Shown here piece after piece: positions 523-15,500 of a stretch of 64,000 nt of DNA; the first letter of the stretch is position 1; the number at the start of each line of letters is the position of its first letter. This stretch comes from Phoronis australis (taxonomy: Eukaryota; Animalia; Phoronida): NCBI GenBank assembly GCA_002633005.1, contig NMRA01000214.1:580414-644413 (forward strand). Reading direction: 5' to 3'. The position numbers were made by a program, and so were the translations under genes. Below the pieces are notes generated by a model that saw nothing but the letters and a program-made list of their open reading frames with translations, ran no database searches and was not told the DNA's origin.

Positions 523-3500
523 ATGTCCTCGAATGATCAAGACATAGTCTTGGCCGTCGCTGACTATGAAGCTACTCACAATGAGCAGGTAAGCAGTGTT
601 ATTGTCACTTTTCAACTCTCATATTCAGGAACAGGGGGTGCATTTAAAGGGTGAAATCTGGTTAAACTATATCGTGAATGTCTCCAAGAGATGTCGCCAA
701 TTTTTTGAAGTGTAGCTCATGGTCTTTCTAGTTTTCACTCACTCTACAGAGTGCGCCGCTGGACGTTTCCAAGACCTGTTACTGTTAGCACACATTGTTT
801 TCCTGTGAATACAGGTCTAGCCCTTGCTTTTCATGGGATTAGCGGTCAATCTCCATTTACTCTGCACAAAAAATAGATAATATTATATATTATTTCTGAT
901 AGTTGGGGTGTGCAAAATAAACTGGATACCTTTGTAGTCCAAACTTGCAAAATTGAGGAACCAAATCCTGGCACCTGGTTACTGCTTTCTTTAGATGGGC
1001 GTGTCCAAGCCTTGTTTCTGTATATTGATTTTACAGCTTAGCAAATACCAATCTGAAACACACATGCTGCATACTGCCTCTCCAAATTCTGTCATATGCT
1101 GGAATGCATCCTCGTAGATAATTTCGACCACTAATCTAGAATCATCATACCGGGTAGCTGAAGTTGATCAGTCTTCGGTCATCACTTGGAGTGCCATCTG
1201 TTGTCTTGGTTAATGAAATGAAGGAACGGGAACAGGTTCAGATATTACACGTTTTACACACTGGCCAACCTTGTCCACATATAGAATACAGCAAAGTACA
1301 CTGGTTATTCTTTACTTATTTTTTAAAAATGGAATTGAATATATTTTCCTGATAGTCGTGGCATGCAGAGATATTCCTGGACTGTGCGTTTGCACCATAA
1401 GCCCATCAAAAAATAAAAAAGTGCAGTGCAGTAGTGTGTCCTCCTTGCACATCTTTGAAAATGCAACACTATTCCAAAAATGCTAGATTCTAGTCCACTT
1501 TCTGCCAGTCAGGTAAAACATGACTCTTTATTTTGATTGTCCTTGCGGTTATGGTTTCATGTGTTACCACTGTAATTACACTAAGTCTGCTGGGCACCAC
1601 TTTTTGAAAAAAGGCTCTTTTTAAAATTGTCAGGTGCTCCCAAAGGGAACAGGTTCAAACCTGCTCAGGAACATACCTTTGTGTGCCAAATAGAGGAAAT
1701 ATACAGACTTAATAGTTGACAGTTGTGAAAAATTAACGGAATAACGAGGCATCGCCAACTCCCCCTATTTGAATTTAATGAAGCGCAGCCAACGGGTTGG
1801 CAACATGACCCAATTAACAGTAAAGTGACTTGATGCTGTTCCAATACAATAAGAGTACTTGACTTCTCTTTTGAACTTAACTGTTAAGTGTGTTGACACT
1901 TATCCAGATCACCCTGTTCACCTCATGTTTACAGTAACACGAGATATCTTGTATGAATGGATGAATGAAGTGGTGATTATACTATGATCAGACCTTCTTA
2001 ATATAGCTAAAAAGGTGTGCAGTGCTCAACGCGAAAATGCCTACTCGAAAATACGAGTGACGGCATATCCTGCAATCAGCACTCGTATGTTTAGATTTGA
2101 GCTCGACCAAAACAAAAGGAACTCGCCAAAAGTGGCAACCAAAAAAAGAAACACTGAACGTCTACTCCGCTCCCGTTGAATAATACAAGTGAGGTCAATT
2201 TCCTACTGGTGTTTTTACTTTCGAGCATCCATTCACTTTTGTTGAGCCCTGAGAGGGCTTTGCTTTGATAGTTTTGGAAGTGTAGAACTGACTATGTGTG
2301 AATTACGTGAGGCAAGAAATTTCCATCAACTAACCTTGCATGAGGTAAGTGAGGGAAAACTATTATTTTTACTAGTAATTTTGAGTCTGTGACATGAGGT
2401 GAGCGCACTTATGAAGTTTAGAATTTCCATAGGTTTCAAAAGACAGAATCTCCTCTTGGTGACGCACGCATTTTGTTTCCAGGTTTTTGCCATAACTTTG
2501 GCAAAGACTTACAAAGTCTGAAATTTGTTTAAAGACTAATGTTTGTTTCATTATTTCCAGCTGTCGTTCAACAAGGGAGACAGATTGGTCATCTTGAGCA
2601 GAGAGGGTGATCACTGGTGGTGGGCCAAGAGAGCTGGTCGCTGTGGGTATGTACCTGTCAATCACACGTCGGCCAGTAAAAGTCAAGAACGCATCAAAAG
2701 TCTCCTGTGGCAAGACGATGAGTATTTTGACAACTACGGGAAGTTGGTAAGATCTCACGAGACTGTGGTAGGCACGACCTATTAACTATAATCATAGTTG
2801 TATTTTGTTTGTTTGTTCTTTGAATTGATTACGTTACCACGTGTGTGTGTGTGTGTGGTTAGGCTCATGCATTTGTATGTGAAGCTGCGCCTGTATCCGG
2901 GATTAGACGGTTGTGTTTATAAGCCTATGTTCTGGTATTAAATTATTTTGCTAACATTTTTGAAAGATCCTATATTGATTGTTGGCAGATTATTGAAAAA
3001 TGATGTAATAGAAAAGGGTGTTGTTTGAAGCTGCAATGGTGTAGTTTTTCAGACACATGTATCAACTTAAAGAAAGAAAGTTGTGAAATTATTTAAAGCT
3101 TTTCATTTACAGGTTGTCCTTTGGCATGTGTGTGTCATTTTAATGTGTTCGTAAAACGATTGTTTATGAAATAAGGTTTGGGTATTGGATTCACATCGAC
3201 TGTTTACAGCATGCTGTGTAGTTTTCGAATACATTAAATTCAAAGGTCAGAAGACTTAAACCTGTAGCATGGAGATATGGTATTGGAGGTGCAGGCTTTG
3301 GCAGCTGGTCCTAAAGTGACTTAGTTGTACTGAAGTGTTGACGAGCCGTATGTGAGGTGGTTTCAATGGGCTGATGATGTACGCCATCTTGTGTCAGTGA
3401 AAACCGTGGATGATTGGCTGTGGATAGTGGTATATGTATGCTCTATCCTGGCTGATTGTGTTCTACTGATCCAGGCTTTGACAAGGTTTGGAGTTTGGGC

Positions 3501-12500: not shown

Positions 12501-15500
12501 TCTAAATCTGCAGTCCCGTCCGGGACTTCTGGATCAAAGATTAAAGATAATTTTGTTGAAAGGAAGACTGGTCGGCAGGGCATGGAGTCTGGCTCGGAAA
12601 GTAAGGCTTGTATTCAAAGTGGGGAGACCGACATTGCTACTGCTGCTGTTGCTGCTGCTGCTGCTGCTGCAGACAGCAGTAAGGAAGTTTCAAAGATATC
12701 TGGAAGCAGTTGTCCCGGCGACCAAAGAAAGATCAAAGATTGTTCATCAGAGGAAAGTGTGACCTCTAAAAATCAGACCAATGCAGCTCGTCCCACGGAA
12801 GTTATCGTAATATCTGAGAATTCAGAGGATTCTTTGAAAGCATGTGATCAGTCTATTTCCAAGAAGCGCAATGATCCTGAAGACAGCTCTGTAACTAGCG
12901 CTGAGGACAGGGAGAAAGAATCATCTTCAAGAACAGTTAATGGGATGGATAGGAATGTAGAGAACGAAGAATCCGATGATGATTTTGTTGGCCTGGTGAT
13001 TGATGAAACTTATGAAAGCGATGATGAGGACGCAGACGTGTGGAGCAGAAATTGTCCTGATGATGATGAAATGGGAGATCTCATCATAGTAGATGAAGCC
13101 AGGCAAAGTCCTTGTACAGAGCAGGAAGTGGAACCTACTGCTGGTTGTGAAGCTACAGTAGAACAAAATACGTTGGGAGAGCCACTGCAGTCTCAGAATG
13201 TCATTGAAGGTCGGGTGGTTGGTCAAGGGGAGTGTAATGAGAAATGCGATAATAGCCAGTCAGTGTTACCCGGAACATCATGCGAGCTGGAGCAGGAAAG
13301 TCCAGCTTCAGAAAAGGAAGTTGCTGTTGGCTCGTGTTTAGCTGAAGGGATAGATAATGGTGGGTTTGATGAATCTGTGATGTCTGAAGAGCATACTTTT
13401 GTGGAGGTGGTGGATCAGGAAGCCATCTATGCCATGCAAGATGTCGAAAATAAGTCGGATTTTTCTGGAGCAGAAGCCTCAGAAGAGGATGAATTGCTCG
13501 ACGAATTACCTGATCTAGAGCTGTCTGCTGAAATGGACAATATTGGACTTGCCATTGGGGAAAGCCTTCACAATAGCAACGACCCAGAACTTAGTTCGGG
13601 AGAAGATGGTGAATGCACATCCTCAGAAGACGAGTCTGGTGATGATAAGGTCTCTGCTGTTATACACGCTGAAATTGGCATGTCTTCAAAATCTGAGGAG
13701 GTACCGAGCATGGACCACGATTTACCCGAGGATGCCGAGTCTTCTCGTGTTGAAAAAGCATCATTGGTTCAAGATGAGAAAGAAATAGACGTACAATTTC
13801 CAGGCAATACCGTGTCAGGAAGTGACACTTTGCATAGCTGTAGTGATGAACCAGTCATGGCCGAGATGAGAGTTGGCGGCGTCTTGGAAGATAATTCAGT
13901 TTGCATAGTCAAAGTAACTCGAAATCTCCCAACTCTTTCACCTGACGTTTCTGAACAAGCAGTTATGAGTCCCGTGTCCGAGTTGTGCCAGGAGAAATTT
14001 GGGCCCGTCTTTGACACTCATGCTCTGTTTCAAGGAGATGATGTGGAGAAGTTTATTACTGATGTACAACAATCCACTGCTGGTACCGTGAGCACAACAG
14101 GTGGTGTGGTTGTCTTCTGTAACCCCGAGGATTATGATCATGTACGGATTCCAACTGATACAAGTTGGAAAGTGGCAATTGGTATTAATCCGAAGCTGGT
14201 CGGTCTCCTCACAGATGACCACTGGGCGCAGTTTGAGCAAGTGAAATCGGGCGGTCTTGTGCTGGGAAGTGTCGGCCTTGACTGGAGTGTGTCTCCTGAT
14301 GAATACGGGAAGCAAGAGGATGTTTTAAATAAAGTTTTGGGTTACTGTACTGAGGACAATGTACTAATACTTCATGTGAGGGGTCCTGTAGGAGATTCCT
14401 TGGGTACTGGTGCTCACGCGGAATGCCTTGAGACTGTGCGAGACAACTGTTCAAAAAAGCAAAAAATTGTCCTGCATGCATTCTCCGGTGGACCTACACA
14501 AGTCCGCAGGTGGTCGAAAGCTTTCCCCAACTGCCACTTCAGCTTCTCTCCAGCAGTCCACGAATTCAATGATGGTCAAAAGGAAGGTTTGCGCAGCATT
14601 CCTTTGGAAAAGATTCTCATCGAATCCGACGTATCTTGGCAAAATGATCAGAGTCTGAGTGCGTTAGAACTCTTCAATGGTATTGCTGAGAAAGTTGCTG
14701 AGATAAAGGAAGTCTCCGTCTCTGAAGTATTAGAAGCTTGTGATAAAAATGGAAAAAGACTTTACGCTACCTTCTAAAGGAACTGTTGCAGTGTTAAGAC
14801 ACTTACTTGGTATCCATAAAACAGCACATTATTGACTAATATTTGTTTTGAGAATGGGAAGAGGGTGGAAGTTGTGAATCGCTCAGTATGACTTTGTTGT
14901 GTGCTGCCTGTGTTGATGGCTAAGAAAAAAAATCACTCTTGAGCTGTTGAAGATGCCATAAAATGTAGGGTGTCGTCAAAACATCTAGTACTTAATATAT
15001 TGCAGCTTGACGGGACATTGATACTGAAGTATTCTAAGTCGTTTAATTGTCTATATTGATTAGTTGTTGCTTTGTTATGCCAGGGTTGGCAGATGCTTGT
15101 CATTCAAACGTGCACTGTTTGCATAAGAATTGTAAAACTGTGCATCAATGGCAACGGAAATGGATGAGTTGGTTGATGCTGAAATTGGTTCATTAGGTTT
15201 GAAAGTGAAATTAACTAAATGCAGGAGGTACATAATTCGGATGTTCTAGCAAGAATTATTCATGTTATGACATATTTTGTTGTCTCTGTGGAACTCTGGA
15301 TGTGACGGGATTTCCTCGTGTCTTTGATAGTGGTGTGGTGAAGACTGCTTTTTACTGTGTGCTAATTTGTACCAAGTGTAATGGTAATGACTGAGACATA
15401 TGCAGTTCTATCGTGTTTCTTCACTGGCTGTGAGCAGCCACGGTGTTGCTAGTTCTCCGTGACTGACCTGCTGCGGACAGTGCCAAAGGACATGTGACCT

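What the first reader, a model, noticed from the sequence alone, without database searches (positions are those of the whole stretch)
2561..14777. PRMT2 locus may encode a second, giant protein: SH3 exon spliced to a Zn-repeat/TatD exon in place of the methyltransferase
Seen: PRMT2 intron 2 (2747-17392) is phase 0 and contains a same-strand intronless frame of ~6.46 kb after collapsing the artefact. That frame stays open to 6706, well upstream of its first ATG (7030). It begins with a textbook 3' splice site (ttcaCTAAAtgttttaatttttCAG|aaagaaatc, AG ending at 6747) that is also phase 0. Splicing 2746->6748 gives an in-frame ~2236-aa protein: MSSND..SH3..[13 protein letters not shown]-rich..P-rich..4 Zn modules..acidic..TatD-like. 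Established: PRMT2 is the SH3-bearing PRMT; I do not know of an SH3-TatD isoform. Inference: one promoter and one SH3 targeting module may be shared between two mutually exclusive effectors (arginine methyltransferase vs nucleic-acid-binding TatD-like protein), possibly through capture of a mobile-element or retroposed ORF. The alternative is an independent nested gene with its own 5' exon.
Basis: partly seen in the sequence, partly recalled or inferred. Interest (0 to 1): 0.9.

Follow-up and report, generated by a model that had tools for sequence, protein, structure and literature searches.

The report
Giant TatD-like exon inside PRMT2 intron
A 6.4-kb protein-coding exon of an unnamed mollusc-type protein family sits inside an intron of the PRMT2 gene and is transcribed, but in three RNA samples the splice that would join it to PRMT2's SH3 part was not seen, so the predicted giant fusion protein is likely rare or tissue-restricted if it is made at all.

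Summary
The anatomy is real. PRMT2 intron 2 holds a same-strand intronless ORF (6748-14777). Its 1570-bp duplication at the N (11068) is an allelic assembly overlap. The ORF is transcribed, under purifying selection (pN/pS 0.29), and belongs to an unnamed mollusc/brachiopod family: N-terminal helical domain, Zn/helical module(s), TatD. This copy has four modules and has lost TatD's metal-bridging glutamate, so it is likely not an active nuclease. The 6747 acceptor is strong, in phase, and sits where coding signal begins, 94 codons before the first ATG. The key prediction was not seen in three stranded RNA runs: no 2746->6748 joint and no loose ends at 6748 were listed. Depth just upstream of the acceptor was about 9 reads; at most 3 unexplained partial reads could be spliced. 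Sense RNA covers the 5' part of intron 2 while intron 1 is spliced out. Best reading: an alternative last exon of PRMT2 whose upstream intron is mostly retained in these samples. Rival: a nested gene with its own start near 6630. Relatives fused to host genes occur in Patella (RBM10) and Mytilus (PDCD6-like) protein models. The SH3 fusion remains plausible but unshown.

The parts
523..588 (+). PRMT2 first coding exon (22 aa, start of SH3; phase-0 donor)
   Evidence: Translation; joint 588/2561 in 13+5+3 reads
2561..2746 (+). PRMT2 SH3 exon (62 aa, ends in the YFDNYGKL motif; phase-0 donor)
   Evidence: Pfam SH3; PDB PRMT2 E 6e-15
2747..6747 (+). 5' part of PRMT2 intron 2; covered by sense RNA (retained) in X1 and X2; dispersed repeats at about 4400-6100; read-through from exon 2 stops after 12 codons
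   Evidence: Depth in 2813-4248: 4.1/4.5/0.2 vs intron 1 (659-1376) 0.03/0.55/0; stop codon
6590..6629 (.). Dip in RNA depth in all three runs: possible transcript boundary or start site, or a bias/filter effect
   Evidence: Summed depth 1.3 vs mean 10.8
6724..6747 (+). Candidate 3' splice site (branch-like CTAAA, T-rich tract, CAG), phase 0; use not detected
   Evidence: Sequence; no joint or loose end
6748..7029 (+). 94 open, coding-like codons ahead of the first in-frame ATG; holds 3 out-of-frame ATGs
   Evidence: Codon score
7030..7668 (+). First in-frame ATG and Gln/Ser-rich segment
   Evidence: Translation
7669..7962 (+). Family N-terminal helical domain (GQY...W motif); at the very N-terminus in most relatives that have it
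   Evidence: Found in 35 of 150 relatives, median start residue 5, 0 hits in the reversed control; window match E 4e-20
8836..10866 (+). Four Zn/helical modules (C-x4-C...H-x3/4-H plus about 120 aa of helices); no Pfam family; no similar solved fold found
   Evidence: HMM positions; model pLDDT 91; fold searches
11069..12638 (+). Second allelic copy of 9498-11067 (assembly overlap at the N at 11068); not a real duplication
12639..13982 (+). Ala run and long acidic, likely disordered linker
   Evidence: Translation
14010..14777 (+). TatD-like domain with a degenerate active site, then the stop codon
   Evidence: PF01026 E 6e-22; motifs
17393..23874 (+). PRMT2 methyltransferase exons (17393-17482, 18662-18733, 19447-19611, 21714-21890, 22335-22601, 23016-23205, 23842-23874)
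   Evidence: Translations and GT/AG ends

Best explanation
The ORF is a transcribed, selected, intronless member of a mollusc/brachiopod Zn-module/TatD family that likely serves as an alternative last exon of PRMT2: RNA from the PRMT2 promoter likely ends behind it, mostly keeps the 4-kb intron in the three samples examined, and would yield the 2236-aa SH3 fusion only when 2746->6748 is spliced, which was not seen. Shown: the ORF, its family, purifying selection, sense transcription, splicing of intron 1, RNA over the 5' part of intron 2, and RNA on both sides of 6747 without a listed joint. Inferred: that these reads are one molecule from the PRMT2 promoter; that it is polyadenylated after 14777; that the acceptor is used in some tissue or stage. 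The retained form would encode only a 96-aa SH3 stub (22+62+12 codons) and would divert transcripts from full PRMT2. The fusion would be an SH3-targeted, likely catalytically dead TatD scaffold that binds nucleic acid or protein rather than cutting it.
For: Coding signal starts at the acceptor, not at the ATG: 0.13 bits per codon in 6748-7029 vs -0.16 just upstream; chance of 94 open codons about 0.003. The acceptor is phase 0 like the exon-2 donor and is 1 of 2 T-rich YAG sites in 4.2 kb. Six ATGs between 6600 and 7029 would hinder scanning to 7030 (one search lists them; the effect is inferred). Intron-2 and ORF depth move together across runs (4.1/6.8, 4.5/6.9, 0.2/1.3) while intron 1 is near 0. 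Reads on unique sequence are on the same strand as the spliced exon 1-2 reads, so this is RNA. pN/pS is 0.29 between the two allelic copies (16 synonymous, 15 non-synonymous of 523 codons; p=6e-4). Family precedents: Patella vulgata RBM10 models XP_050414734/8/9/40 end in a module exon after a cut OCRE domain. P0159 carries a different 104-aa N-terminus on the same ORF whose other version begins MFYLQ, as expected from reading through an acceptor. Mytilus LOC143054837 models join a giant module segment to PDCD6-like exons. The bridging Glu is Ser here and Glu in 46 of 55 relatives; Glu112Ala cut both activities of TATDN1 (PMC10085689, passages).
Against: No 2746->6748 (or 588->6748) joint among 15 of 16 joints shown. 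No joint or loose end among 102 reads laid on 6110-7309; depth at 6710-6749 was 2.1/4.4/2.6 against 5.2/6.0/3.0 at 6750-6789. At most 3 partial reads are unexplained (X1 1, X2 2). Depth dips to 1.3 at 6590-6629 (p<0.01 under uniform sampling, though the simulation's mean depth of 13 was above the observed 10.8), which could mark a separate start. The first half of 6748-7029 scores only 0.01. The ORF contains the family's whole stand-alone architecture. No SH3 in 150 of 150 relatives scanned. No AATAAA/ATTAAA between the stop and 16662. Repeats at 4400-6100 hide continuity there, and short reads cannot prove one molecule. The precedents are database models that I could not check against reads.
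Confidence: 0.5

Rival explanations
1. Independent nested gene. The ORF has its own promoter inside intron 2 (near 6630 or in the repeats at 4400-6100), is not spliced at 6747, and gives a 2058-aa protein from ATG 7030 with no SH3. The acceptor is a relic or a coincidence.
For: Unspliced RNA at 6747 and the V-shaped dip at 6590-6629 in all three runs. In X3 the region 6230-6630 is covered while 2813-4248 is nearly empty. The ORF holds the full family architecture and most relatives have no host domain.
Against: It does not explain the coding-like, open 6748-7029 segment starting at a strong in-phase acceptor, nor the sense RNA over 2813-4248 that covaries with the ORF. Upstream ATGs lie between the dip and 7030. 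No cluster of molecule starts was listed. X1 also falls to depth 1 inside the ORF, so coverage is uneven.
Confidence: 0.3
2. One reading: the SH3-Zn-TatD fusion is a regular, abundant spliced isoform, mutually exclusive with PRMT2.
For: In-phase acceptor, coding signal and family precedents.
Against: At ORF depth near 7 in X1 and X2, a dominant junction would be expected to pass the 3-read listing threshold, as the exon 1-2 joint did (13, 5, 3 reads); it was not listed. The 95% upper bound on the spliced share is 28-58%, depending on how reads and mates are counted.
Confidence: 0.12
3. Passenger of a mobile element, or a nuclease gene riding in an intron, transcribed passively with no host role.
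For: Intronless ORF; large, diverse family (155 clusters at 50% identity); one relative follows a gag-like zinc knuckle in the same reading frame (P0101).
Against: No terminal repeats around the ORF; no other long ORF nearby; one copy in the window; purifying selection; degenerate active site and four modules where 146 of 150 relatives have one.
Confidence: 0.08

Closest known systems
CSB-PGBD3 'exon trap' (PMC2268245, passages read)
   Same: A large single-exon ORF in a host intron, same strand, with an in-frame acceptor, able to act as an alternative 3' terminal exon giving host N-terminus plus captured protein.
   Different: There the fusion is shown and abundant and the ORF is a recognisable transposase. 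Here the junction was not detected, mobile origin is unproven, and the ORF is a Zn-module/pseudo-TatD protein.
Host-transposase fusion genes (bioRxiv 10.1101/2020.05.07.082677, abstract and outline only)
   Same: Recurrent capture of one ORF type by different host genes through splicing, which the Patella, Mytilus and P0159 relatives suggest for this family.
   Different: No transposase domain here, and the hosts (PRMT2, RBM10, PDCD6-like) are not KRAB-type genes.
Intronic polyadenylation with composite versus skipped terminal exons (PMC5928244, passages); human PRMT2L2 arises by alternative polyadenylation (PMC8623767, passages)
   Same: The RNA seen fits a composite terminal exon (donor 2746 not used); the proposed fusion is the skipped-terminal-exon form. 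Human PRMT2 also makes SH3-bearing, catalytically dead isoforms.
   Different: The terminal exon here carries a selected 6.4-kb ORF; the human isoforms only truncate PRMT2. The cleavage site was not mapped here.
TatD / TATDN2-3 nucleases, HxH class (PMC10085689, passages)
   Same: PF01026 match over the whole domain; best PDB match TATDN3 (2y1h, E 3e-7); keeps the two His after the strands and the Glu-x-Asp motif.
   Different: HxH is HxL, the G-x-H-P His is Asn, and the bridging Glu is Ser; it is fused to Zn/helical modules with no Pfam family.
Unnamed mollusc/brachiopod Zn-module + TatD proteins (e.g. Ostrea edulis XP_056014015, Haliotis cracherodii XP_071100930, Lingula anatina XP_013401815)
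   Same: N-terminal helical domain, module(s), low-complexity linker, C-terminal TatD. 70 of 150 relatives have TatD by Pfam, 79 by a family profile.
   Different: Four modules (maximum 2 among the 150), about 2100 aa, only 22-42% identity in the modules, and located in a PRMT2 intron.

Membership tests
PRMT2 (host gene) | N-terminal SH3 followed by a type I PRMT core (YFxxY, DVGxGxG, double-E loop, THW) | tested here: met
   motif names from PMC8623767
TatD nuclease | TatD TIM-barrel sequence family | tested here: met
   PF01026 78.6 bits vs cut-off 27; the single-sequence model was low-confidence, pLDDT 55
TatD nuclease | N-terminal HxH or (G/A)xN metal motif | tested here: not met
   DTHAL here; HxH in 44 of 55 relatives
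TatD nuclease | Metal-bridging Glu (TATDN1 Glu112) | tested here: not met
   GSVGLD; Glu in 46 of 55 relatives; importance from PMC10085689
TatD nuclease | Two His ligands and the C-terminal Glu-x-Asp | tested here: met
   LHVRG, LHAFSG, IESDV
TatD nuclease | Exonuclease / AP-endonuclease activity | not testable with these tools
   Needs an assay
[quoted passage not shown] | Same-strand ORF in a host intron behind an in-frame acceptor | tested here: met
[quoted passage not shown] | Spliced host-to-ORF junction in RNA | tested here: inconclusive
   None listed in 3 raw-read runs; about 9 reads of depth just upstream, at most 3 candidate partial reads; low depth
[quoted passage not shown] | Polyadenylation site behind the ORF | not tested
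   No canonical signal in 14778-16661; no reads were laid on this part
[quoted passage not shown] | Transposon origin (terminal repeats, multicopy relatives in the genome) | tested here: inconclusive
   No terminal repeats; no genome held; one gag-like neighbour in P0101
[quoted passage not shown] | Conservation at the same intron in related species | not testable with these tools
   No animal genome collection; no close homologue found
Intronic polyadenylation, composite terminal exon | RNA continues from the exon through the unused donor into the intron | tested here: inconclusive
   Sense depth in 2813-4248 and 6110-6749; 359-bp bins and short reads do not prove continuity at 2746 or across the repeats
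Unnamed Zn-module/TatD family | N-terminal helical domain + module + C-terminal TatD | tested here: met

The most novel reading that the evidence does not exclude
An undescribed lophotrochozoan family of intronless Zn-module/TatD ORFs acts as a recurrent exon trap, captured independently by PRMT2 (here), RBM10 (Patella) and a PDCD6-like gene (Mytilus). At this locus a regulated retained intron switches one promoter between PRMT2, an SH3 stub, and a 2236-aa SH3-targeted pseudo-nuclease built on a module with no known fold.
Probability: 0.35. Interest if true: 0.75.

Novelty: new variant of a known kind. Interest (0 to 1): 0.5.

Why it matters
If the junction is confirmed, PRMT2's SH3 domain would be shared between a methyltransferase and an unrelated giant protein, and it would be a non-transposase case of recurrent exon capture in invertebrates. 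Even without the fusion, the locus points to a large family (155 clusters at 50% identity) with a confidently modelled Zn/helical module that has no Pfam family and no similar solved fold in the searches run. I found no description of it in four literature searches (with any 3 terms; TatD+Mytilus gave 0 papers; TatD+LTR retrotransposon gave 2 unrelated listings). It is also a caution: a textbook in-frame acceptor need not be used in the bulk RNA.

Tried and rejected
No whole genome is held, so copy number and synteny could not be checked. Word-based homology searches found nothing: N-terminal 1440 aa, TatD part among longer proteins; the module profile found only 2 proteins; all are weak negatives. 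The look-up of sequencing runs listed no RNA holder; the three raw-read runs came by species label and were laid; the contig run X4 gave one 168-base piece in the ORF and little else. ESM Atlas: best score 0.86, leads only; a second query did not complete. Context searches for family loci failed: the module alignment had no usable pattern; the full-length alignment returned 80 metagenome and 10 viral loci matching only the TatD part, and 0 of 90 had the module, so a mobile origin stays open. Fold searches of the module model: no Foldseek match with E<=0.001 in PDB or BFVD; best VIA Z 3.1, rmsd 4.0, 73 aligned; this does not prove a new fold. The TatD model without an alignment was poor and was not searched. 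The TatD tree puts the window's domain on a long branch inside the family with weak local support (0.68); not used further. The second-His column was misaligned and was redone by pattern. Rejected: a real tandem duplication; DNA contamination (reads are single-stranded on unique sequence); plain nascent pre-mRNA (intron depth near exon depth in X2 but near 0 in X3); a small intron from 6505 to 6747 and trans-splicing at 6748 (no joint or loose end); weak Pfam hits (all below cut-off except TatD, SH3, MFS). The 2746->17393 junction and the RNA 3' end were not examined, because both read-laying runs were used on 300-11067 and 6110-7309. Look-ups of earlier findings by place, sequence and words gave nothing on this locus or family. 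PMC6962438 mentions TATDN2 only in a figure legend. No supplements were read.
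Full report
Observation. The window starts in an animal PRMT2 gene. Exon 2561-2746 matches SH3 families and, best of all PDB chains, PRMT2. 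Seven further exons from 17393 to 23874 give the methyltransferase core. Intron 2 (2747-17392) is phase 0. It holds two long + strand frames, 6706-11202 and 11034-14777, which meet at one N (11068) between two 1570-bp copies differing at 31 sites. RNA shows this is an allelic overlap: depth is not doubled, all 7 listed variant sites carry the second copy's allele, and no joint back to 9498 is listed. Collapsed, the ORF is 2152 codons from 6748, or 2058 from the first ATG at 7030. With exons 1-2 it would be 2236 aa.

The ORF is a real gene. The two alleles differ by 16 synonymous and 15 non-synonymous changes in 523 codons, pN/pS 0.29, p=6e-4. It is transcribed on the PRMT2 strand at mean depth 6.8, 6.9 and 1.3 in runs X1-X3; the strand is anchored by the spliced exon 1-2 reads.

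Family. A full HMMER scan with the four modules found 155 representatives at E<=0.001, of which 150 were listed. Pfam finds TatD in 70 of the 150 and SH3 in none. Named members come from Ostrea, Mytilus, Haliotis, Patella and Lingula (30 proteins looked up, most unnamed). The shared plan is an N-terminal helical domain (35 of 150; here 7669-7962), one module in 146 of 150 and two in 4, a low-complexity linker, and TatD. The module folds confidently (pLDDT 91) but matched nothing clear. Most relatives keep the TatD ligands (bridging Glu in 46 of 55; HxH in 44 of 55). The window's copy has Ser for that Glu and lacks two His. Since Glu112Ala reduced both activities of TATDN1 (PMC10085689, passages), this domain is likely a binder, not a nuclease. 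That is inference.

Is the acceptor real? The sequence says probably. It is 1 of 2 T-rich YAG sites in 2800-7030 by a rough filter, it is phase 0, and a codon model trained on the rest of the ORF gives 0.13 bits per codon for 6748-7029, within the range of the coding windows, above every (overlapping) intron window, and -0.16 just upstream. The first half of the segment alone is neutral (0.01). Six ATGs lie between 6600 and 7029, three of them out of frame inside the segment.

Is it used? Not detectably in these samples. On 300-11067 the exon 1-2 joint was listed with 13, 5 and 3 reads; no joint into 6748 was among 15 of 16 shown. On 6110-7309, 102 reads gave no joint and no loose end; depth was 2.1/4.4/2.6 just before the acceptor and 5.2/6.0/3.0 just after. 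Partly fitting reads numbered 2/3/4, of which 1/1/4 are probably CAG-repeat reads at 7218-7223, leaving at most 3 candidates. This also makes it unlikely that the hidden row is the junction. The 95% upper bound on the spliced share is 28-58%, so a dominant spliced isoform is disfavoured and a minor one is not excluded. Only 18-19% of each run was read, the three runs are one study, and the tissues are unknown.

What the RNA looks like instead. Sense depth over 2813-4248 is 4.1, 4.5 and 0.2, against 0.03, 0.55 and 0 in the unique part of intron 1, and it follows the ORF across runs. The simplest reading is a transcript with intron 1 removed, the 2746 donor unused, and an end behind the ORF: a composite terminal exon in the sense of PMC5928244 (passages). 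It would encode a 96-aa SH3 stub. Against one molecule: repeats at 4400-6100 hide continuity, and depth falls to 1.3 at 6590-6629 in all three runs, which could be a start site. The tool warns that dips can come from its filter, and X1 falls as low inside the ORF. The 3' end was not examined.

Precedents. Patella vulgata RBM10 models end in a module-bearing segment right after a cut OCRE domain. Mytilus LOC143054837 has models in which a giant module-bearing segment replaces the first 7 residues of a PDCD6-like protein. P0159 and P0153 share 628 C-terminal residues but begin with a 104-aa Gly/Pro/Tyr-rich segment and with MFYL respectively, as expected for a spliced form and a read-through of its acceptor. 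These are database models, unchecked here, but they show that splicing of this family onto host genes has been predicted independently. The known analogue is CSB-PGBD3 (PMC2268245, passages). A mobile origin is open: no terminal repeats, one relative behind a gag-like zinc knuckle, and no genomic context obtained.

Verdict. Observation confirmed; interpretation partly supported. Best: alternative last exon of PRMT2 with the upstream intron mostly retained, fusion minor or restricted (0.5). Nested gene with its own start (0.3). Abundant fusion isoform (0.12). Passive mobile passenger (0.08).

Noticed in passing
window 15588-15659: A 72-nt, phase-0, stop-free segment with good AG/GT ends lies between the ORF and PRMT2 exon 3: a possible cassette or alternative exon; no reads were laid on it.
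   Followed up: no
window 22847-23035: A 59-bp tandem repeat (3.2 copies) triplicates the acceptor and the start of the PRMT2 exon carrying the THW motif; only the last copy (23016) leads into the open frame.
   Followed up: partly
window 6643-6705: An ATG at 6643 is in frame with the big ORF but is stopped by TAG at 6703-6705; no variant was listed at the stop in the RNA reads.
   Followed up: partly
window 20620 and 63292-63385: A second single N with similar sequence on both sides (about 20197-20285 and 20621-20705, seen) looks like another allelic contig overlap; a 94-N gap lies near the window end.
   Followed up: no
window 4400-6100 and 2286-2320: Dispersed repeats with high read depth on both strands and many loose ends.
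   Followed up: no
window 58020-58976: An exon of a major-facilitator-superfamily transporter gene on the + strand (PF07690, E 4e-18).
   Followed up: no
proteins P0101, P0144, P0042, P0098, P0159: Family members joined to other domains: a gag-like zinc knuckle (P0101), a PHD fragment (P0144, Mytilus coruscus model), EF-hands of a PDCD6-like gene, the RBM10 N-terminal half, and a Gly/Pro/Tyr-rich N-terminus.
   Followed up: partly
proteins P0001, P0003, P0080, P0115, P0132: Several relatives, including both two-module full-length ones in the TatD alignment, have also lost TatD metal ligands, hinting at repeated decay of the active site in long copies.
   Followed up: partly
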